From Escherichia coli (GTDB taxonomy: Bacteria > Pseudomonadota > Gammaproteobacteria > Enterobacterales > Enterobacteriaceae): 64,000 nucleotides of DNA. Positions 33,306 through 45,300 of this stretch are shown piece by piece (positions within the stretch are counted from its first letter, which is position 1; each line of letters begins with the position of its first letter). The translations under genes and the position numbers were made by a program. Under the pieces are notes generated by a model that was not told the origin of the DNA, did no database searches, and saw nothing but the letters and a program-made list of their open reading frames with translations. The stretch lies in NCBI RefSeq assembly GCF_024223415.1, contig NZ_CP100500.1. The stretch is one strand, 5' to 3'.

Positions 33306-35207
33306 ATGTCAACCGGATTACGTTTCACACTGGAAGTGGACGGCCTGCCACCGGACGCTTTTGCGGTGGTTTCCTTTCATCTCACCCAGTCACTCTCTTC
33401 GCTCTTTTCCCTCGATCTCTCCCTGGTCAGCCAGCAGTTTCTCTCCCTTGAATTCCAGCAGATCCTCGACAAAATGGCCTACCTGACGATATGGCAGGGC
33501 GATGACGTACAGCGCCGGGTGAAAGGTGTGGTGACCTGGTTTGAACTGGGGGAGAACGACAAAAACCAGATGCTGTACAGCATGAAGGTATGCCCGCCGC
33601 TGTGGCGTGCCGGTCTGCGCCAGAACTTCCGTATCTTCCAGAACGAGGACATCAAAAGCATCCTCGGCACGATATTGCAGGAAAACGGGGTGACCGAGTG
33701 GAGTCCGCTGTTCAGTGAACCGCATCCTTCCCGTGAGTTTTGTGTCCAGTACGGTGAGACTGATTACGATTTCCTGTGCCGGATGGCGGCGGAGGAAGGC
33801 ATCTTCTTTTATGAGGAGCATGCTTACAAAAGTACCGACCAGAGCCTGGTGCTGTGCGACACGGTCCGCCATCTGCCCGAATCTTTTGAAATCCCATGGA
33901 ACCCGAACACCCGTACCGAGGTGAGCACCCTCTGCATCAGCCAGTTTCGCTACAGCGCACAAATCCGCCCTTCTTCCGTGGTGACCAAAGACTACACCTT
34001 TAAACGCCCCGGCTGGGCAGGACGTTTTGATCAGGAAGGCCAGCACCAGGATTACCAGCGCACGCAGTATGAGGTGTATGACTACCCCGGACGTTTCAAG
34101 GGCGCCCACGGGCAGAACTTTGCCCGCTGGCAGATGGAGGGCTGGCGAAACAATGCAGAAACCGCGCGGGGAATGAGTCGCTCGCCGGAGATATGGCCGG
34201 GACGGCGAATTGTGCTGACGGGGCATCCGCAGGCGAACCTGAACCGGGAATGGCAGGTGGTGGCAAGTGAACTGCACGGCGAGCAGCCGCAGGCGGTGCC
34301 GGGAAGGCGGGGAGCAGGGACGGCGCTGGAGAACCATTTTGCGGTGATCCCGGCAGACCGGACATGGCGACCCCAGCCGCGGCTAAAACCGCTGGTGGAC
34401 GGTCCGCAGAGCGCCGTCGTGACGGGGCCGGAGGGTGAGGAAATCTTCTGTGATGAACATGGCCGAGTGCGGGTGAAATTCAACTGGGACCGTTATAACC
34501 CGGCAGACCAGGACAGCTCGTGCTGGATCCGTGTGGCACAGGCGTGGGCAGGCACCGGTTTTGGCAACCTGGCGATACCGCGTGTGGGTCAGGAGGTGAT
34601 AGTGGACTTCCTCAACGGCGATCCGGACCAGCCGATCATTATGGGGCGCACCTACCACCAGGAAAACCGCACCCCCGGCAGCCTGCCGGGGACGAAGACG
34701 CAGATGACCATCCGTTCCAAAACGTATATGGGCAGCGGGTTTAATGAGCTGAAGTTTGACGATGCGACAGGGAAAGAACAGGTCTACATCCACGCGCAGA
34801 AGGACATGGATACCGAGGTACTCAACGATCGTACCACCACCGTAAAACACGATCATCGCGAAACCGTAAAAAATGACCAGACGGTCACGATACAGGAAGG
34901 TAATCGCCTTCTTATGGTGGAAAAAGGCGACAAGATCACAGGAGTACGAAAAGGTTCTTTATCTGAGAATGTCTTTCAGGACAGAGGCACGATTGCCGGT
35001 TCGGTGCATGTTGACGCTGTAGACAATGGTGGCGAAGGCAACGGTATACAGGCTTATACGGCAATTAAGGAAATTATGCTGGCCGTGGAGGAAAGCAAAA
35101 TTGCGCTGACGCCGGATGGCATTCAGCTACAGGTCGGGGAATCAACGGTAATCAGGCTGTCGAAGGATGGCATCACCATCGTGGGCGGCTCTGTTTTTAT
35201 CAACTGA
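33306..35207 (+). CDS. vgrG: type VI secretion spike protein VgrG (gp27/gp5-like, no C-terminal extension)
   Basis: 633-aa ORF with strong RBS GGAGG; canonical VgrG sequence features; preceded by about 600 bp of AT-rich DNA. Confidence 0.9.
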   Translation: MSTGLRFTLEVDGLPPDAFAVVSFHLTQSLSSLFSLDLSLVSQQFLSLEFQQILDKMAYLTIWQGDDVQRRVKGVVTWFELGENDKNQMLYSMKVCPPLWRAGLRQNFRIFQNEDIKSILGTILQENGVTEWSPLFSEPHPSREFCVQYGETDYDFLCRMAAEEGIFFYEEHAYKSTDQSLVLCDTVRHLPESFEIPWNPNTRTEVSTLCISQFRYSAQIRPSSVVTKDYTFKRPGWAGRFDQEGQHQDYQRTQYEVYDYPGRFKGAHGQNFARWQMEGWRNNAETARGMSRSPEIWPGRRIVLTGHPQANLNREWQVVASELHGEQPQAVPGRRGAGTALENHFAVIPADRTWRPQPRLKPLVDGPQSAVVTGPEGEEIFCDEHGRVRVKFNWDRYNPADQDSSCWIRVAQAWAGTGFGNLAIPRVGQEVIVDFLNGDPDQPIIMGRTYHQENRTPGSLPGTKTQMTIRSKTYMGSGFNELKFDDATGKEQVYIHAQKDMDTEVLNDRTTTVKHDHRETVKNDQTVTIQEGNRLLMVEKGDKITGVRKGSLSENVFQDRGTIAGSVHVDAVDNGGEGNGIQAYTAIKEIMLAVEESKIALTPDGIQLQVGESTVIRLSKDGITIVGGSVFIN

Positions 35208-35234: not shown

Positions 35235-35696
35235 ATGCAGTTCACTTTTAATGAAGGCCACATTCAACTGCCGTCTCAATGGCAGGATCAGTCAATGCAG
35301 GTCCTGGTGTCCACAGATAACAGTGGCATCAACCTGGTCATTACCCGCGAAGCCGTTCCACAGGGAACCCTGACACCAGAGCTGTACCAGGAAACGCTGG
35401 CGCTGTACCAGGGCAAACTTGATGGGTACACCGCACATGCCTGCCGGGAAATCACTCTGGCAGAGGCCCCGGCCTGGCTGCTGGATTATTCCTGGAACGG
35501 TCCGGAAGATGAAGGGAATCAGGGGCGGATTAGCCAGATAGCCGTATTCCAGCGGCGTGGAGATACGCTGCTGACCTTCACTTTCAGCACCTCCTTATCC
35601 CTGAAGAACAGTCAAAAGACGATGCTGCTGGAGGTGATAAAGAGCTTCACCCCGTTGCCACCGGAGAATGATATCCAAAAGGACCAGCCGCGCTGA
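35235..35696 (+). CDS. DUF1795-family (Eag-like) effector chaperone/adaptor
   Basis: 153-aa ORF directly between vgrG and a prePAAR Rhs gene, the usual position and size for Eag/DUF1795 chaperones; family assignment is by context and sequence recollection. Confidence 0.7.
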   Translation: MQFTFNEGHIQLPSQWQDQSMQVLVSTDNSGINLVITREAVPQGTLTPELYQETLALYQGKLDGYTAHACREITLAEAPAWLLDYSWNGPEDEGNQGRISQIAVFQRRGDTLLTFTFSTSLSLKNSQKTMLLEVIKSFTPLPPENDIQKDQPR

Positions 35697-35715
35697 CATA
35701 AACGAGGGATAACAC

Positions 35716-38700
35716 ATGAGTGAAGGACCAGGCGGGCCACAGGGAGCGACCGCAGGCGGTACGCTGGCAATGCGAATGCTTTCACAGCAGGCGATGGTCG
35801 CCAGCCAGATGAAACGGGCAGCCAACAACAAAGCCATTGCACAGATGTTGGCATCAAAAAAGTCTGGCCCCCCCGCCGCCAGGCTGGGCGATGAAATTCA
35901 GCACAAGAGTTTTTTGGGGGCGCTGGCAGGGGCCGTGCTGGGGGCGATAGTGACCATCGCAGAAGGTTGCCTGATTATGGCCGCCTGTGCCACCGGCCCT
36001 TATGCGCTGGTTCTGGTGCCTGCGCTGATGTATGCCAGCTATAAGGCGAGTGATTATGTGGAGGAGAAACAGAACCAGCTTGAATCATGGATAAACAGCT
36101 TTTGTGACACGGACGGCGCCATCAATACCGGTTCTGAAAACGTAAAAATTAACGGAAAGCCCGCTGCCAGGGCCGCCGTCACCCTTCCCTCTCCTCCCCC
36201 GCCTGAAGCAATACCCGAAGCCTCACAGGGGGAGCATTCATGGGGTGACATGGCCCTTGACCTGCTTGAATCGGCAGCGGAAAAAGCAGCGCCACTGGCT
36301 AAATCCTGGGGGAACGCTGTTATCACCCTGACGGACAGCAATGCCAGTTTTATGGATCGCGTCAGTGCAGGCGCATCGCTTCTGTTTCCCGCCGGTCCGG
36401 TATTAATGGAGTTTGCCACCATGGTGGGCGGGCGTGGCGAAATCAAAAAAGATGTGGATTTCCCGGAAGCCGGTGAGGACACGGCGCTCTGCGACAAGGA
36501 GAACAAACCACCGAGGATAGCCCAGGGCAGCAGCAACGTCTTTATCAACAATCAGCCTGCCGCGCGCAAGGGCGACAAACTGGAGTGCAGCGCGGCAATC
36601 GTGGAAGGTTCGCCGGACGTCTTTATTGGGGGTGAGCAGGTCACCTATCTGGATATCCAGCCGGAGTTCCCGCCATGGCAGAGAATGATCCTGGGAGGAA
36701 TAACGATAGCCAGCTATCTTCTGCCGCCAGCAGGACTGCTGGGAAAACTGGGGAATCTGGCGAAACTGGGCAAACTGGGAAACCTGCTGGGGAAAAGCGG
36801 GAAGCTGCTGGGCGCAAAACTCGGCGCGTTGCTGGGGAAAACAGGTAAGTCGTTAAAAAGTATTGCCAATAAAGTCATCAGATGGGTAACAGATCCTGTC
36901 GATCCGGTAACCGGCGCGTACTGCGACGAACGTACCGACTTCACCCTGGGCCAGACCCTCCCCCTCTCCTTCACCCGTTTCCACAGTTCTGTACTGCCAC
37001 TGCATGGCCTGACGGGCGTGGGCTGGAGCGACTCCTGGAGCGAATACGCCTGGGTGCGTGAACAGGGAAACCGGGTGGATATCATCAGCCTGGGAGCCAC
37101 GCTGAACTTCGCCTTCGACGGTGAAAGTGATACGGCGGTTAACCCGTATCACGCCCAGTACATTCTGCGCCGCTGCGACGATTACCTGGAGCTGTTCGAC
37201 AGGAATGCACTGAGCAGCCGCTTCTTTTATGACGCCTTTCCGGGAATGCGTCTGCGCCACCCGGTGACTGACGATACCAGCGATGACCGCCTGGCACACA
37301 GCCCCGCAGACCGGATGTACATGCTGGGCGGGATGAGCGACACCGCCAGCAACCGCATCACGTTTGAGCGCGACAGCCAGTACCGGATCACGGGTGTCAG
37401 TCACACCGACGGGATCCGGCTTAAACTGACGTACCACGCCAGCGGCTACCTGAAAGCCATTCACCGCACGGATAACGGCATACAGACGCTGGCGACCTAC
37501 GAACAGGATGCGCGGGGGCGGCTGACAGAAGCGGATGCGCGGCTGGACTACCACCTGTTTTATGAGTACGACGCTGCGGACCGGATCATCCGCTGGTCCG
37601 ATAACGACCAGACGTGGAGCCGTTTCACCTACGATGAACAGGGCCGGTGCGTGACCGTCACCGGGGCGGAGGGCTATTACAACGCCACGCTGGACTATGG
37701 TGACGGCTGCACCACCGTGACGGACGGCAAGGGCATTCACCGTTATTACTATGATCCTGACGGCAATATTCTGCGGGAAGAAGCGCCGGACGGCAGCACC
37801 ACCACGTATGAATGGGATGAATTCCATCACCTGCTGGCCCGCCACTCCCCTGCCAGGCGGGTGGAGAAATTTGAATACAACGCCGCACAGGGTCAGTTAA
37901 GCCGTTACACGGCGGCAGACGGCGCGGAGTGGCAGTACTGCTATGATGAGCGCGGCCTGCTCAGCAACATCACCGACCCTGCCGGGCAGACGTGGACGCA
38001 GCAGTGTGATGAACGCGGCCTGCCGGTAAGTCTGGTGTCGCCACAGGGCGAAGAGACCCGGCTGGCGTACACGCCGCAGGGGCTGCTGTCGGGGATATTC
38101 CGCCAGGATGAACGGCGTCTGGGCATAGAGTACGACCACCACAACCGGCCGGAAACACTCACCGACGTGATGGGCCGTGAACACCACACCGAATACAGCG
38201 GTCACGACCTGCCGGTGAAGATGCGCGGCCCCGGCGGTCAGTCAGTGCGGTTGCAGTGGCAGCAGCACCATAAACTGAGCGGCCTTGAGCGGGCAGGAAC
38301 CGGCGCAGAAGGATTCCGCTATGACCGCCACGGCAACCTGCTGGCGTACACGGACGGTAACGGCGTTGTCTGGACAATGGAATACGGCCCGTTCGATTTG
38401 CCGGTGGCGCGAACGGACGGTGAAGGCCACCGCTGGCAGTACCGCTACGATAAAGACACGCTGCAGCTCACAGAAGTCATTAACCCGCAGGGTGAGTCTT
38501 ATCTTTATATTCTGGACAACTGTGGCCGGGTGACGGAAGAACGTGACTGGGGCGGCGTGGTCTGGCGTTACCGTTATGACGCTGATGGCCTGTGTACCGC
38601 CAGGGTCAACGGCCTGGAGGAAACCATCCTCTACGGCCGGGACGCCGCAGGCCGCCTGGCAGAAGTCATCACGCCGGAAGGTAAAACGCAGTATGCGTAT

Positions 38701-40536
38701 GACAAATCCGGCAGGCTGACGGGTATCTTCAGCCCGGACGGCACATCACAGCGCACCGGCTACGACGAACGCGGGCGGGTGAATGTCACCACTCAGGGCC
38801 GACGGGCCATTGAATACCACTACCCCGACGAACATACCGTCATCCGCTGTATCCTGCCACCGGAAGATGAACGCGACAGACACCCCGATGAATCCCTGCT
38901 GAAAACCACGTACCGCTACAACGCAGCCGGAGAACTGACGGAGGTTATCCTGCCGGGGAATGAGACGCTGACGTTCAGCCGTGATGAGGCAGGACGTGAA
39001 GTGTTCCGGCACAGTAACCGGGGTTTTGCCTGTGAGCAGGGCTGGAATGCAGCCGGCCAGCTTACCAGCCAGCGCGCCGGACTTTTCCCGGAGGAAGCCA
39101 CGTGGGGCGGGCTGGTTCCGTCACTGGTGCGGGAGTACCGTTACGACAGCGCGGGTAATGTGTCAGGCGTCACCAGCCGGGAAGATTACGGACGGGAAAC
39201 ACGGCGGGAATACCGGCTGGACCGGAACGGCCAAGTCACGGCGGTGACAGCCTCAGGCACCGGGCTGGGCTATGGCGAAGGCGATGAGTCCTATGGCTAT
39301 GACAGCTGTGGCTACCTGAAGGCGCAGTCTGCGGGCAGGCACCGGATAAGTGAAGAGACTGACCAGTATGCCGGAGGCCACCGGCTGAAACAGGCCGGAA
39401 ACACGCAGTATGACTATGACGCCGCAGGCCGGATGGTCAGCCGGACAAAACACCGTGACGGCTACCGCCCGGAAACAGAGCGGTTCCGGTGGGACAGCCG
39501 GGACCAGCTGACCGGGTATTGCAGCGCACAGGGTGAGCTGTGGGAATACCGCCACGACGCCAGCGGCAGACGAACAGAGAAACGCTGCGACCGGAAGAAA
39601 ATCCGCTTCACGTATCTGTGGGACGGCGACAGTATTGCGGAAATCCGGGAATACCGCGATGATGAACTGTACAGCGTACGGCACCTGGTGTTTAACGGCT
39701 TTGAGCTGATAAGCCAGCAGTTCAGCCGGGTACGGCAGCCGCACCCGTCCGTGGCTCCGCAGTGGGTGACGCGGACGAATCATGCGGTGAGCGACCTGAC
39801 GGGCCGGCCGCTGATGCTCTTTAACAGTGAAGGTAAAACCGTCTGGCAGCCGGGACAGACCAGCCTGTGGGGGCTGGCACTCAGCCTGCCCGCAGACACA
39901 GACTACCCGGACCCGCGCGGGGAACTGGACCCGGAAGCCGACCCCGGCCTGCTGTATGCGGGACAGTGGCAGGATGCGGAATCCGGGCTGTGCTATAACC
40001 GGTTCCGGTATTACGATCCGGAAACCGGAATGTACCTGGTGAGTGATCCGCTGGGGTTGCAGGGAGGGGAGCAGACTTACCGGTATGTGCCTAATCCTTG
40101 TGGGTATGTTGATCCCTCTGGGTTGGCAATGACTTCGAAAATAGTCAATAAACTACCTTCTGCAAAAGATCTTGCTACAAAAAGGGCCAGTGAGTTATTA
40201 GCAAAGGCAACATCTAATACCCAGCGAAGTAAATTACCAAGGGCAGTTTCAGCTGTTGTTGATAAGAGAACTGGCAAAATATATTATGGAGAAAGTGGCT
40301 GGCCTCACCCAACAGAAATACATCCTACATTACAAAATAATATGCCATCAGCCAGTAAGGAGCGATGGGCAATCGAGAACTGTGCGGAATTTAAAGCTGT
40401 AAATGAAGCTTTGAAGGCAAATGCGAAAATTAGTGATCTTGAAGTTCATACAGTATTGGTAAAAACAGGCGAAGCTTTTCCAATGTGTAAGAATTGTCAA
40501 ATTTCAATATTTGGCGCTGTTGTTACAAGCGGGTGA
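35716..40536 (+). CDS. rhs: Rhs polymorphic toxin with N-terminal prePAAR/TM/PAAR region, YD-repeat shell and a variable C-terminal tip resembling a deaminase-fold toxin
   Basis: 1606-aa ORF; prePAAR motif AARLGDEIQH followed by hydrophobic helices; YD repeats; core ends with DPLGL...DPSGLA (about 40045-40119); after that GC content drops and the tip carries C-A-E (40381..40389) and P-M-C-K-N-C (40480..40497) about 34 residues apart, the zinc-ligand pattern of cytidine/adenosine deaminases. Confidence 0.9.
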   Translation: MSEGPGGPQGATAGGTLAMRMLSQQAMVASQMKRAANNKAIAQMLASKKSGPPAARLGDEIQHKSFLGALAGAVLGAIVTIAEGCLIMAACATGPYALVLVPALMYASYKASDYVEEKQNQLESWINSFCDTDGAINTGSENVKINGKPAARAAVTLPSPPPPEAIPEASQGEHSWGDMALDLLESAAEKAAPLAKSWGNAVITLTDSNASFMDRVSAGASLLFPAGPVLMEFATMVGGRGEIKKDVDFPEAGEDTALCDKENKPPRIAQGSSNVFINNQPAARKGDKLECSAAIVEGSPDVFIGGEQVTYLDIQPEFPPWQRMILGGITIASYLLPPAGLLGKLGNLAKLGKLGNLLGKSGKLLGAKLGALLGKTGKSLKSIANKVIRWVTDPVDPVTGAYCDERTDFTLGQTLPLSFTRFHSSVLPLHGLTGVGWSDSWSEYAWVREQGNRVDIISLGATLNFAFDGESDTAVNPYHAQYILRRCDDYLELFDRNALSSRFFYDAFPGMRLRHPVTDDTSDDRLAHSPADRMYMLGGMSDTASNRITFERDSQYRITGVSHTDGIRLKLTYHASGYLKAIHRTDNGIQTLATYEQDARGRLTEADARLDYHLFYEYDAADRIIRWSDNDQTWSRFTYDEQGRCVTVTGAEGYYNATLDYGDGCTTVTDGKGIHRYYYDPDGNILREEAPDGSTTTYEWDEFHHLLARHSPARRVEKFEYNAAQGQLSRYTAADGAEWQYCYDERGLLSNITDPAGQTWTQQCDERGLPVSLVSPQGEETRLAYTPQGLLSGIFRQDERRLGIEYDHHNRPETLTDVMGREHHTEYSGHDLPVKMRGPGGQSVRLQWQQHHKLSGLERAGTGAEGFRYDRHGNLLAYTDGNGVVWTMEYGPFDLPVARTDGEGHRWQYRYDKDTLQLTEVINPQGESYLYILDNCGRVTEERDWGGVVWRYRYDADGLCTARVNGLEETILYGRDAAGRLAEVITPEGKTQYAYDKSGRLTGIFSPDGTSQRTGYDERGRVNVTTQGRRAIEYHYPDEHTVIRCILPPEDERDRHPDESLLKTTYRYNAAGELTEVILPGNETLTFSRDEAGREVFRHSNRGFACEQGWNAAGQLTSQRAGLFPEEATWGGLVPSLVREYRYDSAGNVSGVTSREDYGRETRREYRLDRNGQVTAVTASGTGLGYGEGDESYGYDSCGYLKAQSAGRHRISEETDQYAGGHRLKQAGNTQYDYDAAGRMVSRTKHRDGYRPETERFRWDSRDQLTGYCSAQGELWEYRHDASGRRTEKRCDRKKIRFTYLWDGDSIAEIREYRDDELYSVRHLVFNGFELISQQFSRVRQPHPSVAPQWVTRTNHAVSDLTGRPLMLFNSEGKTVWQPGQTSLWGLALSLPADTDYPDPRGELDPEADPGLLYAGQWQDAESGLCYNRFRYYDPETGMYLVSDPLGLQGGEQTYRYVPNPCGYVDPSGLAMTSKIVNKLPSAKDLATKRASELLAKATSNTQRSKLPRAVSAVVDKRTGKIYYGESGWPHPTEIHPTLQNNMPSASKERWAIENCAEFKAVNEALKANAKISDLEVHTVLVKTGEAFPMCKNCQISIFGAVVTSG

Positions 40537-40540
40537 TTAT

Positions 40541-40978
40541 ATGTGTGAATTAATTAATGAAGCATCAAAATATGGGAAAGTCAATGTAAGAAAGATGGAC
40601 ATTGATTTGTGTTGTAAAAAAATAGAGGAAGAAGGGTATTCTGTTTTCGTTGCGTTCTATGATTTTATAAAAAAATATGGCGGTTTATATGGCTTTCATT
40701 CAGCTTACAAAGACACCACTATAAGTGAGGCTTTTTTTATAGATCCAGAAAGGGCCTCTAATCGCATTTTTATAGAAAGAGTCAATGATTATATTGAGAG
40801 AGCTGGTTACAATATGATTCCTGTTGGCGAGTGCAGTAATGGTCATATCACATTATTATATGGGGAAAATAATGTGATATATGGCGGCTTGGATGATTAT
40901 CTTTGGAAGTATGGGGATAATTTATCTTCATCAATTGATATATTGATTAATGGTAAGGAGGCAGTTGAAATTCCGTAA
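40541..40978 (+). CDS. putative cognate immunity protein for the Rhs tip
   Basis: AT-rich ORF starting 5 bp after the rhs stop (ATG at 40541; an upstream TTG at 40511 would overlap rhs); position and composition typical of Rhs immunity genes; family unknown. Confidence 0.6.
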   Translation: MCELINEASKYGKVNVRKMDIDLCCKKIEEEGYSVFVAFYDFIKKYGGLYGFHSAYKDTTISEAFFIDPERASNRIFIERVNDYIERAGYNMIPVGECSNGHITLLYGENNVIYGGLDDYLWKYGDNLSSSIDILINGKEAVEIP

Positions 40979-40984
40979 GGCCAA

Positions 40985-42909
40985 CTGCCAGGGCCAACGG
41001 CCTGGAGGAAACCATCCTCAACAGCCGGGACGCCGCAGGCCGCCTGGCAGAAGTCATCTCGCCGGAAGGCAAAACGCAGTATGCGTATGACAAATCCGGC
41101 AGGCTGACGGGTATCTTCAGCCCGGACGGTACATCACAGCGCACCGGCTATGATGAACGCGGGCGGGTGAATGTCACCACTCAGGGCCGACGGGCCATTG
41201 AATACCACTACCCCGATGAACACACCGTCATCCGCTGTATCCTGCCACCGGAAGATGAACGCGACAGACACCCCGATGAATCCCTGCTGAAAACCACATA
41301 CCGCTACAACACCGCCGGAGAACTGACGGAGGTCATTCTGCCGGGGGATGAGACGCTGACGTTCAGCCGTGATGAGGCGGGACGTGAAGTGTTCCGGCAC
41401 AGTAACCGGGGTTTTGCCTGTGAGCAGGGCTGGAATGCAGCCAGCCAGCTTGTCACCCAGCGCGCCGGATTTTTCCCGGAGGAAACCACATGGGGCGGGC
41501 TGCTCCCCTCACTGGTACGGGAGTACCGTTACGACAGCGCGGGCAATGTGTCGGCTGTCACCAGCCGGGAAGATTACGGACGGGAAACACGGCGGGAATA
41601 CCGGCTGGACCGGAACGGCCATGTCACGGCGGTGACAGCCTCAGGCACCGGGCTGGGCTATGGCGAAGGCGATGAGTCCTATGGCTATGACAGCTGCGGC
41701 TACCTGAAGGCGCAGTCTGCGGGCAGGCACCGGATAAGTGAAGAGACTGACCAGTATGCCGGAGGCCACCGGCTGAAACAGGCCGGAAACACGCAGTATG
41801 ACTATGACGCCGCAGGCCGGATGGTCAGCCGGACAAAACACCGTGACGGCTACCGCCCGGAAACAGAGCGGTTCCGGTGGGACAGCCGGGACCAGCTGAC
41901 CGGGTATTGCAGCGCACAGGGTGAGCAGTGGGAATACCGCCACGACGCCAGCGGCAGACGGACGGAAAAACGCTGTGACCGGAAGAAAATCCGTTTTACG
42001 TACCTGTGGGACGGCGACAGTATTGCGGAAATCCGGGAATACCGCGATGATGAACTGTACAGCGTACGGCACCAGGTGTTTAACGGCTTTGAGCTGATAA
42101 GCCAGCAGTTCAGCCGGGTACGGCAGCCGCACCCGTCCGTGGCCCCGCAGTGGGTGACGCGGACGAATCACGCGGTGAGCGACCCGACGGGCCGCCCGCT
42201 GATGCTCTTTAACAGTGAAGGCAAGACGGTCTGGCGGCCGGGGCAGACCAGCCTGTGGGGGCTGGCACTCAGCCTGCCCGCAGACACCGACGACCCGGAC
42301 CCGCGCGGGGAACTGGACGCGGAAGCCGACCCCGGCCTGCTGTATGCAGGACAGTGGCGGGATGGGGAATCCGGGCTGTGCTATAACCGGTTCAGGTACT
42401 ACGAGCCGGAAACCGGAATGTACCTGGTGAGTGATCCACTGGGGTTGCTGGGGGGTGAGCAGACTTACCGGTATGTGCCTAATCCACTGGGTTGGATTGA
42501 CCAGTATGGACTTGCTGGTTGCCCCAGAGCTCTGGCAAGGGCAATGAAACGGGCTAACAGAAACCTAGCTAAGAGTGCCGGATACATGAATCGAGCTTGG
42601 TATAAATTCAAAGGTTCTGCCGCCCATCATATTGTTGCTTGGGATGACCCCCGTGCTTTAGGCGCAAGAAAAATTCTGGAAAAATATGGTATACACATTG
42701 ATTCCGCAGAAAATGGAATATTTTTGAAACATGTAGATCCAAACTCTCTTCAGCCAGGATCTTATCATCGTGTTATTCATACGAACAAATATTATGCTGA
42801 TGTTGAGGCACGACTCGCAGACGCAGCTAAGGCTAATGGGAAACAAGGTGTTCTTGATGAGTTAGATGCTATCAGGGATGACCTGCTTTTTAATAGACTA
42901 ATTTATTAA
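40985..42909 (+). pseudogene. orphan rhs fragment (about 1.5 kb of core plus a distinct tip of the AHH nuclease family), no N-terminal region
   Basis: Nucleotides about 40988-42500 are near-identical to the main rhs at about 38599-40115; after its own DPLGL motif the tip differs and contains GSAAHHIVAWDD (AHH at 42622..42630), then ENGIFL and SYHRVIH, matching the HNH-like AHH family; longest internal ORF is 41167..42909. Confidence 0.7.
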
Positions 42910-42922
42910 TAAGGGCATAGTA

Positions 42923-43456
42923 ATGAATGTTTATTTAATTCGGCATGATGTGGACAACTTCAAGTTTTACTTGCAAGACGAGAGTGACTTTCTTTCAGTT
43001 GCTGCTTTTGATTTTTGTGGAGAGTCTCTATTTAATGGATGGAAACCATACAAAATAGAGCTATTTAAAGGAAAAACTAAAGCTGAGAAATCATTAAACG
43101 GGGATTTTAATTCATCATGTTTTAGTCCAGGATTATTATACGTCGAACATTCTCTCGCAGATGTATTATCTCGTCAGGCAAATGATATTGAGTTATTAAA
43201 AGTAATCACCAGTGATGATCGTGATTTTTATTATGCAAACGTGGTAGGGAAAATACCAGCCTTACATTATAACAACAGACAAGAGCTACAAATTATGAGT
43301 AGAACACAAGAATATAAATTCAATAACTCCATAAATGAAATGTTAATATTTCGTGATAAAACATTACCTTCAAACTATTTTGTTACAGATCGTTTTGTGG
43401 ATATTTTTCAGAATGATTTTCGTGGGGTAATTTTTAAAAAAGTTGGTGAGATATAA
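42923..43456 (+). CDS. putative immunity protein for the orphan AHH-nuclease tip
   Basis: 177-aa AT-rich ORF immediately downstream of the orphan tip; family unknown. Confidence 0.6.
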   Translation: MNVYLIRHDVDNFKFYLQDESDFLSVAAFDFCGESLFNGWKPYKIELFKGKTKAEKSLNGDFNSSCFSPGLLYVEHSLADVLSRQANDIELLKVITSDDRDFYYANVVGKIPALHYNNRQELQIMSRTQEYKFNNSINEMLIFRDKTLPSNYFVTDRFVDIFQNDFRGVIFKKVGEI

Positions 43457-43482
43457 CTTAATGCATTGAACATCTAACCCGT

Positions 43483-44015
43483 ACCGCTATGACCGCCACG
43501 GTAACCTGCTGGCGTACACGGACGGTAACGGCGTTGTCTGGACGATGGAATACGGCCCGTTCGATTTGCCGGTCGCGCGAACGGACGGTGAAGGCCACCG
43601 CTGGTGGTACCGCTACGATAAAGACACGCTGCAACTGACAGAAGTCATCAACCCGCAGGGTGAGTCATATCTTTATGTTCTGGATAACTGTGGCCGGGTG
43701 ACGGAAGAGCGTGACTGGGGCGGCGTGGTCTGGCGTTACCGCTATGACGCCGATGGCCTCTGTACCGCCAGGGTCAACGGACTGGAGGAAACCATCCTCT
43801 ACAGCCGGGACGCTGCAGGGCGCCTGGCAGAAGTCATCACGCCGGAAGGGAAAACGCAGTATGCGTATGACAAATCCGGCAGGCTGACGGGTATCTTCAG
43901 CCCGGACGGCATATCACAGCGCACCGGCTATGACGAACGCGGGCGGGTGAATGTCACCACTCAGGGCCGACGGGCAGGGAAAGATCATCAGAAGTTCACT
44001 TTTTGTACTAAATAA
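43483..44015 (+). pseudogene. second rhs core fragment (about 0.5 kb) truncated at the H-repeat insertion
   Basis: Near-identical to the main rhs at about 38316-38808; ORF 43545..44015 ends in a short unrelated tail (GKDHQKFTFCTK) where the H-repeat element begins. Confidence 0.65.
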
Positions 44016-45300
44016 TTCGCATTTTATGTTTAAAAATTGAGATATTCCTCATTATCCGAAGCTGTTTTTTATTGCTTATACATGATCAAATACTCCTTAC
44101 ATAATTAAGGAGAACAAAATGGAACTTAAAAAATTGATGGAACATATTTCTATTATCCCCGATTACAGACAAGCCTGGAAAGTGGAACATAAATTATCAG
44201 ATATTCTACTGTGGACTATTTGTGCCGTTATTTCTGGTGCAGAAGGTTGGGAAGATATAGAGGATTTTGGGGAAACACATCTCGATTTTTTGAAGCAATA
44301 TGGTGATTTTGAAAATGGTATTCCTGTTCACGATACCATTGCCAGAGTTGTATCCTGTATCAGTCCTGCAAAATTTCACGAGTGCTTTATTAACTGGATG
44401 CGTGACTGCCATTCTTCAGATGATAAAGACGTCATTGCAATTGATGGAATAACGCTCCGGCACTCTTATGATAAGAGTCGTCGCAGGGGAGCGATTCATG
44501 TCATTAGTGCGTTCTCAACAATGCACAGTCTGGTCCTCGGACAGATCAGGACGGATGAGAAATCTAATGAGATTACAGCTATTCCTGAACTTCTTAACAT
44601 GATGGATATTAAAGGAAAAATCATCACAACTGATGCGATGGGTTGCCAGAAAGATATTGCAGAAAAGATACAAAAACAGGGAGGGGATTATTTATTCGCT
44701 GTAAAGGGAAATCAGGGGCGACTAAATAAAGCCTTTGAGGAAAAATTCCCGCTGAAAGAATTAAATAATCCAGAGCATGACAGTTACGCAATCAGTGAAA
44801 AGAGTCACGGCAGAGAAGAAATCCGTCTTCATATTGTTTACGATGTCCCTGATGAACTTATTGATTTCACGTTTGAATGGAAAGGGCTGAAGAAATTATG
44901 CGTGGCAGTCTCCTTTCGGTCCATAATAGCAGAACAAAAGAAAGAGCCAAAAATGACGGTCAGATATTATATCAGTTCTGCTGATTTAACCGCAGAGAAG
45001 TTCGCCACAGCAATCCGAAACCACTGGCACGTGGAGAATAAGCTGCACTGGCGTCTGGACGTGGTAATGAATGAAGACGACTGCAAAATAAGAAGAGGAA
45101 ATGCAGCAGAATTATTTTCAGGGATACGGCACATTGCTATTAATATTTTGACGAATGATAAGGTATTCAAGGCAGGGTTAAGACGTAAGATGCGAAAAGC
45201 AGCCATGGACAGAAACTATCTGGCGTCAGTCCTTGCGGGGAGCGGGCTTTCGTAATCTTGCCCTGCCTGCTCACCTCCAGGCACTTCCACTACATCATGA
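44016..45300 (+). mobile_element. H-repeat (H-rpt) insertion element, boundaries approximate
   Basis: Encloses the H-rpt transposase ORF; left edge set where rhs homology stops (about 43976-44016); right edge not defined by recognisable terminal repeats. Confidence 0.45.
44119..45255 (+). CDS. H-repeat-associated protein (ISAs1-family transposase, YhhI/YdcC-like)
   Basis: 378-aa ORF closely resembling the H-rpt proteins found next to K-12 Rhs elements; sits at the distal end of the Rhs island. Confidence 0.85.

What the first reader, a model, noticed from the sequence alone, without database searches (positions are those of the whole stretch)
35235..36860. prePAAR effector architecture with Eag chaperone and an unusual G/K/L-rich repeated linker
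The Rhs N-terminus has the AARxxDxxxH prePAAR motif (35875..35904) followed by hydrophobic helices and a PAAR domain, and is preceded by a DUF1795 gene, consistent with the Eag-chaperoned class of transmembrane T6SS effectors. Between PAAR and the YD-repeat shell lies a low-complexity tract, GKLGNLAKLGKLGNLLGKSGKLLGAKLGALLGKTGK (about 36733-36850), whose role (amphipathic helix or flexible tether) is unclear.
Basis: partly seen in the sequence, partly recalled or inferred. Interest (0 to 1): 0.4.

Follow-up and report, generated by a model that had tools for sequence, protein, structure and literature searches.

The report
Known E. coli Rhs toxin delivery module
This is the well-known VgrG–Eag chaperone–Rhs toxin cassette of E. 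coli's type VI secretion system, and the odd glycine/lysine/leucine-rich stretch is E. coli's repetitive version of a "postPAAR" segment already described in a Photorhabdus relative, so it is largely ordinary.

Summary
A DUF1795/Eag gene (35235-35696) precedes a 1606-aa Rhs gene (35716-40536). The Rhs has an exact AARxxDxxxH prePAAR motif, a hydrophobic two-helix region, a PAAR domain, and a 36-aa G/K/L tract (aa 343-378, 36742-36849) before the YD shell.

The cassette sits between cusS and nfrB and is present in about 42% of complete E. coli genomes. The same island is known as vgrGO1-eagR-rhs (EHEC z0705-z0707).

The "linker" is not an oddity. It aligns with the postPAAR region (called "TMD2" in that paper's supplement) of Photorhabdus laumondii Rhs1 (PDB 7PQ5). 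There the isolated region binds EagR, and lysines of the basic tract cross-link to EagR, to the N-terminus and to the barrel surface. Basic, glycine-rich post-PAAR tracts also occur in Erwinia, Pectobacterium, Xenorhabdus, Inquilinus and Gallibacterium homologues.

In E. coli the tract has a fixed length and changes mostly synonymously. AlphaFold2 predicts helices there with low confidence.

Most likely it is a flexible, cationic, chaperone-proximal tether and membrane-contact segment. It lies between a post-PAAR hydrophobic helix (aa 324-342) and the anchor helix and autocleavage site (D393-P394|V395). Its exact role remains untested. Interest is low to moderate.

The parts
33306..35207 (+). 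vgrG spike gene (633 aa)
   Evidence: Pfam Phage_GPD 1.6e-75, Gp5_trimer_C, Phage_base_V. RefSeq annotates the identical locus as T6SS tip protein VgrG.
35235..35696 (+). eag chaperone gene (DUF1795/DcrB family, 153 aa)
   Evidence: Pfam PF08786 E=2.4e-27. PDB EagT6/PA0094 E=5e-6.
35716..40536 (+). Rhs effector gene (1606 aa)
   Evidence: RHS_repeat 1.4e-74, PAAR, DUF6531. PDB 7pq5_L (P. laumondii Rhs1) E=7.4e-255 over aa 254-1476.
35755..35856 (+). N-terminal helix preceding prePAAR (aa 14-47)
   Evidence: AF2 helix 14-47, pLDDT about 92 for aa 21-40. Similar 30-45-aa extensions occur in the Erwinia and Xenorhabdus homologues.
35875..35904 (+). prePAAR motif AARLGDEIQH (aa 54-63)
   Evidence: Exact AARxxDxxxH match. 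Pfam prePAAR_I scores 23.3 bits, just under the 25-bit cut-off. AF2 strands here have pLDDT about 96.
35902..36039 (+). TMD1: hydrophobic two-helix region (aa 63-108)
   Evidence: KD19 maximum 2.13. AF2 helices 66-92 and 97-129. No nonsynonymous change in 4 E. coli alleles.
36106..36180 (+). PAAR domain, first part (aa 131-155, first PAAR motif KPAAR)
   Evidence: AF2 pLDDT 94-97. Aligns with the first PAAR repeat of P. laumondii Rhs1.
36181..36510 (+). ~110-aa insert splitting the PAAR domain (aa 156-265)
   Evidence: Absent from P. laumondii Rhs1. AF2 predicts helices with pLDDT 41-77. 10-12 nonsynonymous versus 8 synonymous codon differences between E. coli alleles. Foldseek aligns the PAAR fold of 4jiw_D across 176 columns.
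36511..36645 (+). PAAR domain, second part (aa 266-310)
   Evidence: Pfam PAAR_motif 4.4e-16 at aa 267-310. NCBIfam T6SS_PAAR_dom 4.5e-13. pLDDT 93-97.
36646..36741 (+). postPAAR conserved motif (YLDIxxEFPPW) and hydrophobic helix (aa 311-342; helix 324-342)
   Evidence: E317 is nearly invariant, and P319 (82/106) and W321 (78/105) are the commonest residues in their columns of the 106-sequence alignment. KD19 is 1.62. It is the second most hydrophobic 19-mer of the N-terminus on a rough Hessa sum. AF2 helix 320-335, pLDDT 70-93. No nonsynonymous changes.
36742..36849 (+). G/K/L-rich tract (aa 343-378), the basic Gly-rich part of postPAAR
   Evidence: Fixed length in E. coli. 2-5 synonymous versus 1-2 conservative nonsynonymous codon changes. 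G362, G366 and G370 fall in columns that are 82-91% Gly family-wide. AF2 predicts helices at pLDDT 47-57 (N-terminal model) or below 50 (shell model).
36850..36891 (+). predicted anchor helix (aa 379-392, SLKSIANKVIRWVT)
   Evidence: Hydrophobic moment 0.64 at 100 degrees. Aligns with the RhsA anchor helix SQATNALTQAVVAS (PMC8765631).
36892..36900 (+). predicted N-terminal autocleavage site D393-P394|V395
   Evidence: Aligns with D288-P289|I290 of P. laumondii Rhs1 and H304/P305 of RhsA. Cleavage was not tested here.
36892..37068 (+). N-terminal plug (DUF6531, aa 393-451)
   Evidence: Pfam DUF6531 1.5e-12. AF2 pLDDT 81-92.
37069..40125 (+). YD-repeat shell and C-terminal aspartyl-protease plug, up to DPSGL (aa 452-1470)
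   Evidence: RHS_repeat, 10 stretches. AF2 shell mean pLDDT 82.5, pTM 0.81. DPLGL at aa 1444 and DPSGL at aa 1466.
40126..40533 (+). C-terminal toxin (aa 1471-1606), deaminase-like
   Evidence: Pfam YwqJ-deaminase scores 23.1 bits, below the 25.9 cut-off. CAE and PMCKNC motifs are visible in the sequence. No PDB sequence match.
40511..40978 (+). probable immunity gene (SUKH-3)
   Evidence: Pfam SUKH-3 1.4e-12.

Best explanation
The region is the delivery module of a standard E. coli T6SS Rhs effector encoded in a vgrG-eag-rhs-immunity cassette.

The G/K/L tract is the E. coli form of the basic, glycine-rich half of the postPAAR ("TMD2") segment. That segment joins the PAAR spike tip to the Rhs cocoon.

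**Proposed mechanism**
- In the producer cell, the Eag dimer shields TMD1 and a second Eag site shields the post-PAAR hydrophobic helix (aa 324-342).
- The adjoining Lys/Gly/Leu tract stays outside the cocoon as a flexible, helix-prone cationic tether. It lies next to Eag, the prePAAR N-terminus and the barrel surface.
- The last ~14 residues (aa 379-392) form the amphipathic anchor helix inside the cocoon.
- The chain self-cleaves at D393-P394|V395 but stays attached.
- After firing, Eag is lost. The hydrophobic helices enter the prey inner membrane. The cationic Gly-spaced tract contacts the anionic membrane surface and holds the cocoon at the membrane for toxin release.

**Shown here:** the sequence anatomy, homology to P. 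laumondii Rhs1, conservation of length and sequence in E. coli, and family-wide recurrence of the tract type.

**Shown only in the homologue:** Eag binding, cross-links and cleavage.

**Inferred:** membrane contact and any role in translocation.
For: - **Architecture:**
- **Locus identity and prevalence:** the segment is in 2292 of 5426 complete E. coli genomes, between cusS and nfrB. In E. coli, vgrGO1 and eagR upstream of rhs-ct are reported to be required for delivery (PMC6730261; PMC7216683).
- **Homology:** 7pq5_L matches at E=7.4e-255, and the post-PAAR stretch is aligned.
- **Eag binding in the homologue:** isolated postPAAR of P. laumondii Rhs1 is pulled down by EagR.
- **Cross-links in the homologue:** EagR S117-K252 and EagR S74-K266 link EagR to the basic tract. 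Tract lysines K226-K275 link to the N-terminal S2 and to barrel K518/K519. K282, next to the cleavage site, links to the encapsulated toxin. This places the tract outside the cocoon and only the last residues inside it.
- **Anchor helix and seal:** precedent from P. protegens RhsA.
- **Family recurrence:** basic Gly-rich tracts with net charge +6 to +14 occur in 11 of 27 non-E. coli large homologues, and in small non-Rhs effectors. Gly columns are conserved at positions 362, 366 and 370.
- **Purifying selection in E. coli:** length is constant in all sampled alleles. Changes in the tract are mostly synonymous, whereas the PAAR insert evolves freely.
- **Flexibility:** AF2 predicts low-confidence helices.
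Against: - No experiment or multimer model was possible for the E. coli proteins.
- The alignment to P. laumondii within the low-complexity tract is approximate.
- The whole-tract alpha-helical hydrophobic moment is not significant (p about 0.1).
- GxxxG enrichment is not significant against shuffles (p 0.07-0.15). A defined membrane-active amphipathic or zipper helix is therefore not demonstrated.
- On a rough Hessa sum the tract itself is far from membrane-spanning (+11).
- Post-PAAR length varies from 66 to 136 aa across the family. That variation would suit a mere spacer.
- The HMMER alignment to RhsA would put the second half of the tract at the seal peptide position.
Confidence: 0.6

Rival explanations
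1. Passive spacer. The tract is only an entropic, flexible linker that gives the ~130-kDa cocoon room beside the VgrG/PAAR tip. Its sequence matters only for length and solubility.
For: AF2 gives pLDDT below 50 in the shell construct. The tract is low in complexity. Post-PAAR length varies from 66 to 136 aa across homologues. No significant amphipathic moment was found.
Against: The tract is constrained in both sequence and length within E. coli, while the nearby PAAR insert drifts. Gly spacing is regular (0.02% of shuffles). The basic, Gly-rich character and a shared GxGKL-type core recur across genera. Tract lysines cross-link to EagR in the homologue.
Confidence: 0.25
2. Seal or in-cocoon segment. 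The C-terminal half of the tract (about aa 353-378) threads through the plug as the seal peptide and lines the cocoon interior, as residues 268-288 do in P. protegens RhsA.
For: HMMER aligns RhsA's seal region (KGKFLSNL) with E. coli aa about 353-361, and the segment before the anchor helix with aa 362-378. The RhsA structure is described in PMC8765631.
Against: In the closer homologue P. laumondii Rhs1, lysines up to K275 (13 residues before the cleavage site) cross-link to the N-terminal S2, and several of them (K226-K266) and T271 to the barrel exterior residues K518/K519; K252 and K266 cross-link to EagR. Only K282 cross-links to the toxin. AF2 did not place the segment. The alignment lies in low-complexity sequence.
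Confidence: 0.1
3. Slippage-prone repeat. The 9-nt repeat is a mutational hot spot that generates length variants or pseudogenes and has no function.
For: Tandem Repeats Finder detects 9-nt and 21-nt periodicity. One metagenomic variant has a 50-aa deletion that removes the helix and the tract (P0056).
Against: All sampled full-length matches among 1972 genomes span exactly 231 nt. The 9 distinct sequence variants that span the whole helix-to-cleavage-site window are all 86 aa there (a tenth differs only at the window's left edge). Substitutions are mostly synonymous.
Confidence: 0.03

Closest known systems
Photorhabdus laumondii Rhs1 (Plu0353)-EagR-VgrG complex, PDB 7PQ5 (Jurenas et al. 2021, PMC8636562)
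   Same: It has the same order of parts: prePAAR, TMD1, PAAR, postPAAR (E-F-x-x-W motif, hydrophobic helix ending in VPP, basic Gly-rich tract), D-P|[VI] cleavage site, plug, shell, DPxGL protease and toxin. Sequence match is E=7.4e-255. An adjacent vgrG and a single eag gene are also present.
   Different: - The E. coli basic tract is shorter (36 aa plus a 14-aa anchor helix, against about 62 aa). It is far more repetitive and uses almost only G, K and L.
- Its post-PAAR helix is more hydrophobic (rough Hessa sum +4.3 against +10.6).
- E. coli has a ~110-aa insert inside PAAR.
- The toxin differs: deaminase-like here, Tre23 ADP-ribosyltransferase there.
Pseudomonas protegens RhsA, PDB 7Q97 (Gunther et al. 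2022, PMC8765631)
   Same: It is a class I prePAAR Rhs effector with N-terminal autocleavage, an amphipathic anchor helix just before the cleavage site and a seal peptide upstream. The E. coli aa 379-392 align with the anchor helix.
   Different: The RhsA post-PAAR segment is short and not strongly basic. Similarity is lower (E=3.6e-57).
Class II prePAAR effectors (Tse6, Tas1; Ahmad et al. 2020, PMC7773334)
   Same: They have a hydrophobic, Gly-rich region directly after PAAR that needs its own Eag dimer. Small class II-like proteins match E. coli aa 255-372. Conserved Gly columns are shared.
   Different: - Class II proteins lack the Rhs shell.
- Their TMD2 is truly hydrophobic (rough Hessa sum about +2).
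- They carry the GxxxxGxxLxGxxxD motif, which is absent here.
- The E. coli tract is cationic and is not membrane-spanning on its own.
Glycine-zipper translocation motif of Agrobacterium Tde1 (PMC10240207)
   Same: It is a Gly-spaced (GxxxG) segment in a T6SS effector's delivery region that also lies in the adaptor-binding part. The E. coli tract contains G362xxxG366xxxG370xxxG374.
   Different: There is no sequence homology and the chaperone system differs (Tap1/DUF4123). GxxxG enrichment here is not significant given the composition. Permeabilisation was not tested.
E. coli vgrGO1-eagR-rhs-ct islands (Ma et al. 2017, as summarised in PMC6730261) and EHEC EDL933 z0707-z0706-rhsF (PMC7216683)
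   Same: The gene order is the same (vgrG, then the DUF1795/eagR gene, then rhs), and 2292 of 5426 complete E. coli genomes carry this segment. I did not check the chromosomal position of the published islands.
   Different: Those papers, as far as I could read them, do not discuss the post-PAAR tract. The C-terminal toxin varies between strains.

Membership tests
prePAAR effector (Ahmad et al. 2020) | AARxxDxxxH motif N-terminal to the TMD | tested here: met
   AARLGDEIQH at aa 54-63 is the only match in the protein. Pfam prePAAR_I scores 23.3 bits against a 25-bit cut-off. Close E. coli homologues carry PF25799 in the precomputed annotation.
prePAAR effector (Ahmad et al. 2020) | PAAR domain downstream of the motif | tested here: met
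   Pfam PAAR_motif 4.4e-16. NCBIfam T6SS_PAAR_dom 4.5e-13, below its whole-protein cut-off. The AF2 model matches the PAAR protein 4jiw_D at probability 1.00 and TM 0.65.
prePAAR effector (Ahmad et al. 2020) | Predicted transmembrane helices in the N-terminal region | tested here: met
   KD19 maximum 2.13 over aa 63-108. AF2 helices 66-92 and 97-129. No dedicated TM predictor such as TMHMM was available.
prePAAR effector (Ahmad et al. 2020) | Eag (DUF1795) chaperone gene adjacent | tested here: met
   35235-35696 matches PF08786 at 2.4e-27 and EagT6 at 5e-6. It ends 19 nt upstream of rhs.
prePAAR effector (Ahmad et al. 2020) | Physical Eag-effector interaction | not testable with these tools
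   Shown only for homologues (PMC7773334, PMC8636562).
Class I prePAAR effector | Large protein with an Rhs/YD-repeat shell | tested here: met
   1606 aa; RHS_repeat 1.4e-74; AF2 shell pLDDT 82.5.
Class I prePAAR effector | A single TMD region, located N-terminal to PAAR only | tested here: inconclusive
   A second hydrophobic helix follows PAAR at aa 324-342 (KD19 1.62; rough Hessa sum +4.29, more hydrophobic than TMD1 helix b). It lies beyond the first 300 aa to which the published TM search was limited. No calibrated TM predictor was run.
postPAAR / 'TMD2' region of T6SS Rhs effectors (Jurenas et al. 2021) | Conserved alpha-helix between PAAR and the shell | tested here: met
   Aligned with P. 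laumondii W206-P220. AF2 helix 320-335 at pLDDT 70-93. E317, P319 and W321 are conserved.
postPAAR / 'TMD2' region of T6SS Rhs effectors (Jurenas et al. 2021) | Second Eag-binding site | not testable with these tools
   Pull-down and cross-links exist for P. laumondii only.
T6SS Rhs effectors with N-terminal autocleavage | D-P-[VI]-x-x-x-[TS]-G cleavage motif at the start of the plug (DUF6531) | tested here: met
   D393-P394-V395-D-P-V-T-G400 aligned with D288-P289-I290. Pfam DUF6531 starts at aa 393. Actual cleavage was not tested.
Class II prePAAR effector | GxxxxGxxLxGxxxD motif and small size without an Rhs shell | tested here: not met
   The regex has no match in aa 1-460. The protein has a full Rhs shell.
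Glycine-zipper membrane-permeabilising segment (Tde1-like) | Consecutive GxxxG motifs enriched beyond composition | tested here: inconclusive
   G362, G366, G370 and G374 form a 4-Gly zipper, but shuffles reach this at p=0.07 and the GxxxG count at p=0.15. Overall Gly spacing of at least 3 residues is highly non-random (0.02%).

The most novel reading that the evidence does not exclude
The post-PAAR helix plus the cationic Gly-spaced tract may be a true second membrane-engaging element. Under this reading, many "class I" Rhs effectors are functionally two-TMD effectors. The published single-TMD definition would then partly reflect limiting the TM search to the first 300 residues.

The Lys-rich, flexible tract would act as a "pull cord". 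The prey's inside-negative membrane potential would draw it into or across the inner membrane. That would tug the seal and anchor out of the plug and uncork the cocoon, so that the toxin can be threaded through.
Probability: 0.1. Interest if true: 0.6.

Novelty: already known. Interest (0 to 1): 0.22.

Why it matters
How Rhs toxins leave their cocoon and cross the prey inner membrane is still unresolved. Published models differ on this (PMC8636562, PMC8765631). The segment between PAAR and the plug is the physical connection through which any opening signal must pass.

The E. coli version is short, highly regular and strongly conserved. It sits next to an unusually hydrophobic post-PAAR helix. 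It is also present in about 40% of E. coli genomes, in a genetically tractable host. That makes it a convenient place to test, by charge, glycine or length mutants, whether the postPAAR tract only tethers or actively takes part in delivery.

As a discovery it adds little. The cassette and the region are already described.

Tried and rejected
- **Word-index homologue search.** It returned almost only E. coli fragments. I replaced it with the exhaustive representative search.
- **AF2 of aa 301-1472 to locate the tract relative to the cocoon.** The shell is confident, but aa 301-388 have pLDDT below 50, so no placement was possible. Coordinates cannot be inspected with these tools.
- **AF2 of aa 1-430.** The tract is helical but at pLDDT 47-57.
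- **Amphipathic-helix test on the whole tract.** The moment at 100 degrees is 0.25, against a shuffle mean of 0.15 (p about 0.1). The first half shows period-3, not alpha-helical, periodicity. I therefore did not accept a clean amphipathic helix.
- **Glycine-zipper enrichment.** Not significant given the composition.
- **Class II motif GxxxxGxxLxGxxxD.** Absent.
- **Pfam and NCBIfam on the isolated postPAAR segment and on the PAAR insert.** No family matched.
- **Hypervariable slippage tract.** Rejected.
- **PeerJ UMN026 chaperone-effector paper.** It concerns a different locus (DUF4123) and is not relevant.
- **Toxin domain against PDB sequences.** No match.
- **Recent Eag biophysics paper and Serratia Rhs preprint.** Neither says anything about this region.
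- **Other strand.** The minus-strand ORFs overlapping the tract (36714-37100 and others) are mechanical by-products of the coding frame. I did not pursue them.
Full report
**1. What is there**

The window is E. coli chromosome. The segment 35235-36900 is found in 2292 of 5426 complete E. coli genomes, at 95-100% identity in nearly all. In strain NCTC10444 the same locus reads cusCFBA, cusRS, vgrG, "DcrB-related protein", Rhs, small ORFs, an ISAs1 transposase, then nfrB and nfrA.

In the window the genes are:
- vgrG, 33306-35207;
- a 153-aa DUF1795/DcrB-family gene, 35235-35696 (Pfam 2.4e-27; EagT6 5e-6);
- a 1606-aa Rhs gene, 35716-40536;
- a SUKH-3 immunity-type ORF, 40511-40978.

The prePAAR motif AARLGDEIQH is aa 54-63 (35875-35904). 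The quoted 36-aa peptide is aa 343-378 (36742-36849).

**2. Anatomy of the Rhs N-terminus**

| Residues | Feature | Evidence |
|---|---|---|
| 14-47 | N-terminal helix | AF2, pLDDT about 92 |
| 54-63 | prePAAR motif | |
| 63-108 | Hydrophobic region; AF2 helices 66-92 and 97-129 | KD19 up to 2.13 |
| 131-155 | First PAAR repeat | |
| 156-265 | ~110-aa insert, absent from P. laumondii Rhs1 | |
| 266-310 | Rest of PAAR | Pfam 4.4e-16 |
| 311-321 | Conserved YLDIxxEFPPW motif | |
| 324-342 | Hydrophobic helix | KD19 1.62; AF2 helix 320-335, pLDDT 70-93 |
| 343-378 | G/K/L tract | |
| 379-392 | Strongly amphipathic stretch | moment 0.64 |
| 393-400 | DPVDPVTG, where Pfam DUF6531 (the plug) begins | |

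The shell then runs to DPLGL (aa 1444) and DPSGL (aa 1466). A 136-aa C-terminal toxin follows.

**3. Is the tract more than chance?**

Yes.
- At the DNA level, Tandem Repeats Finder finds a 9-nt unit (CTGGGGAAA, encoding L-G-K) at 5.1 copies and a 21-nt period.
- At the protein level, the ten glycines are spaced 3, 4 or 6 residues apart and never closer. Only 0.02% of composition-matched shuffles achieve this.
- It is the lowest-complexity post-PAAR stretch among the relatives retrieved.

Two more specific readings did not pass a shuffle control.
- The alpha-helical hydrophobic moment of the whole tract is not significant (p about 0.1). The first half shows period 3 rather than 3.6.
- GxxxG counts are not significant (p 0.07-0.15).

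On a rough, position-independent Hessa sum, the tract is far from membrane-spanning (+11). The preceding helix (+4.3) is the second most hydrophobic 19-mer of the N-terminus, ahead of the second TMD1 helix (+5.2).

**4. Conservation within E. coli**

The 9 distinct protein variants that span the whole helix-to-cleavage-site window are all 86 aa there. A tenth differs only at the window's left edge, and one metagenomic fragment has a 50-aa deletion. Full-length matches sampled evenly across 1972 genomes all span exactly 231 nt.

In four alleles that are 85-97% identical over the first 2.2 kb (three at 96-97%), codon differences were as follows:
- the tract has 2-5 synonymous differences and only 1-2 conservative replacements (G346K, K350R, K378N);
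- TMD1, the post-PAAR helix and the anchor stretch have no replacements;
- the PAAR insert has 10-12 replacements against 8 synonymous differences.

The tract is therefore under constraint on both length and sequence. It is not a slippage hot spot. The sample is small and the alleles are not independent.

**5. Relatives**

An exhaustive profile-free search of 1.84 billion representatives gave 1049 hits. Large Rhs homologues all have a post-PAAR segment of 66-136 aa that ends at a [DNHE]-P cleavage-type motif. It comes in two flavours:
- a basic type, Gly/Ala/Leu-rich, with net charge +6 to +14 (11 of 27 non-E. coli sequences);
- a near-neutral, more hydrophobic glycine-zipper type.

The basic type occurs in Erwinia tracheiphila, Pectobacterium parmentieri, Xenorhabdus and Inquilinus limosus. 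It also occurs in small non-Rhs effectors such as one from Gallibacterium anatis.

The aligned block shows a shared core after the "VPP" end of the helix: G-x-G-K-L-[FL]-x-[KR]-x-G-[KR]. A metagenomic homologue (P0107) reads LGKLLSKSGKLVGSAVRGAGKL, very close to E. coli LGNLLGKSGKLLGAKLGALLGK. In the 106-sequence alignment, the columns of G362, G366 and G370 are 82-91% Gly. Alignment within low-complexity sequence is uncertain.

No Pfam or NCBIfam model covers aa 311-392.

**6. What the literature already says**

- **Closest solved structure.** This is P. laumondii Rhs1 (7pq5_L, E=7.4e-255). Jurenas et al. [quoted passage not shown] They show that EagR binding is lost only when prePAAR, PAAR and postPAAR are all removed. 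They also show that isolated postPAAR is pulled down by EagR, and that the N-terminal fragment ends at Pro-289 with D288 required for cleavage.
- **Cross-links.** Their Supplementary Table 1 labels the region "TMD2". It lists EagR S117-Rhs K252 and EagR S74-Rhs K266. It links S2 to K226, K234, K247, K251, K252, K254, S258, K266 and K275. It links K226, K251, K254, K266 and T271 to barrel K518/K519. It links K282 to toxin K1463 and K1476.
- **Mapping the cross-links.** I rebuilt the numbering from the HMMER alignment, and the cross-linked residue identities fit that numbering. All of these lysines lie in the basic tract (R222-K283) that follows the hydrophobic helix W206-P220. So in the homologue the basic tract is exposed, lies near EagR, the N-terminus and the barrel exterior, and only its last residues reach the toxin inside the cocoon.
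- **Anchor helix precedent.** Gunther et al. 2022 (PMC8765631) describe for P. protegens RhsA a seal peptide (268-275), an amphipathic anchor helix (289-302) and cleavage at 304/305. E. coli aa 379-392 align with that anchor helix.
- **Class definition.** Ahmad et al. 2020 (PMC7773334) define class I as having a single TMD region. However, they searched for TM helices only in the first 300 residues. That limit would miss the E. coli helix at aa 324-342.
- **E. coli itself.** vgrGO1 and eagR upstream of rhs-ct are reported to be needed for delivery (Ma et al. 2017, as summarised in PMC6730261). The EHEC EDL933 version (z0707 vgrG1, z0706 EagR, rhsF) has been described in silico (PMC7216683).

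**7. Structure prediction**

With a 32-sequence alignment, AF2 models the plug and shell well (mean pLDDT 82.5, pTM 0.81). It leaves aa 301-388 below pLDDT 50.

With a 106-sequence alignment of the N-terminus, prePAAR and both PAAR halves are confident (pLDDT 93-97). The TMD1 helices are moderate. The post-PAAR helix scores 70-93. The tract is helical at only 47-57.

Foldseek matches the model to the E. coli PAAR protein c1882 (4jiw_D, probability 1.00) over 176 alignment columns. The PAAR fold is therefore kept across the insert.

The low confidence fits a flexible or partner-dependent segment. It does not settle whether any part of the tract enters the cocoon.

**8. Mechanism**

Best-supported reading (confidence about 0.6): the tract is the cationic, glycine-spaced tether of the postPAAR/"TMD2" module. 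It lies outside the cocoon next to Eag in the loaded spike. It follows a hydrophobic helix that is probably the second Eag-shielded element, and it leads into the anchor helix and the self-cleavage site. After firing it plausibly contacts the anionic prey membrane while the hydrophobic helices insert.

Rival readings:
- a purely passive spacer (0.25);
- a seal or in-cocoon segment, by analogy with RhsA (0.1);
- a non-functional slippage repeat (0.03).

The steps shown here are sequence anatomy, homology and conservation. Eag proximity and cleavage are shown only in P. laumondii. Membrane action is inferred.

**9. Novelty and verdict**

The cassette, the chaperone dependence and the region between PAAR and the shell are all already described. 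The only new point is the observation that the E. coli version is an unusually regular (L-G-K)-type elaboration, placed beside a comparatively hydrophobic post-PAAR helix.

Verdict: already known. Interest is about 0.2. The most novel reading not excluded is a membrane-potential-driven "pull cord" that uncorks the cocoon (probability about 0.1).

Noticed in passing
window 36181-36510 (Rhs aa 156-265): The PAAR domain is split by a ~110-aa insert between the first and second PAAR repeats. The insert is absent from P. laumondii Rhs1 but present in the Erwinia tracheiphila homologue, and at the same site in two metagenomic Rhs proteins (P0089, P0099). It contains a weakly hydrophobic stretch (aa 216-239), has low-to-moderate AF2 confidence, and evolves with about equal replacement and silent changes in E. 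coli.
   Followed up: partly
window 35755-35856 (Rhs aa 14-47): A confidently predicted helix (pLDDT about 92) lies within the 53-residue N-terminal extension that precedes the prePAAR motif. In Tse6 the motif lies in the first 15 residues. Relatives from Erwinia and Xenorhabdus have similar 30-45-aa extensions.
   Followed up: partly
window 40126-40533 and 40511-40978: The C-terminal toxin (aa 1471-1606) scores just under the Pfam threshold for YwqJ-like deaminase (23.1 against 25.9 bits). It shows CAE and PMCKNC motifs and has no PDB sequence match. The downstream ORF is a SUKH-3 immunity-type protein whose listed TTG start overlaps the rhs stop by 26 nt.
   Followed up: partly
window 41167-45255: Downstream lies an orphan Rhs C-terminal fragment with an AHH nuclease domain (41167-42909) and a 177-aa ORF with no Pfam match (42923-43456). 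A further Rhs-repeat fragment follows (43545-44015), then a 378-aa ORF (44119-45255) at the position of the ISAs1 family transposase annotated in strain NCTC10444. This looks like a typical displaced-toxin array.
   Followed up: partly
protein P0005 (also P0004, P0008); E. coli contigs up to 327 kb: These are 606-aa E. coli variants. Aa 1-475 (prePAAR, TMD, PAAR, postPAAR, plug) are fused directly to a zincin-like metallopeptidase toxin (PF15640), with the whole YD shell and the DPxGL protease missing. P0005 was seen on 31 contigs. Whether this is a functional cage-less effector or a deletion remnant is unknown.
   Followed up: partly
protein P0056 (ENA metagenome contig, 1614 nt): A single variant has a 50-aa in-frame deletion that removes the post-PAAR helix and the whole G/K/L tract (MILG|KSLKS), between short LG/TG repeats.
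   Followed up: no
protein P0070 (811 aa, Logan/other assembly): This database entry is the E. coli Rhs N-terminus with systematic A->V, T->I/M, P->L/F and S->L/F changes. That is the pattern expected from complete C-to-T conversion of the coding strand. It most likely comes from an assembly of bisulfite-treated reads and is therefore an artefact in the protein collection. It was included in alignments A1 and A2.
   Followed up: no
locus L001 12482-17288 (NZ_LR134092.1, strain NCTC10444): In this strain the segment 35235-36900 is 100% identical to the window, but the Rhs gene is annotated as a frameshifted pseudogene.
   Followed up: no
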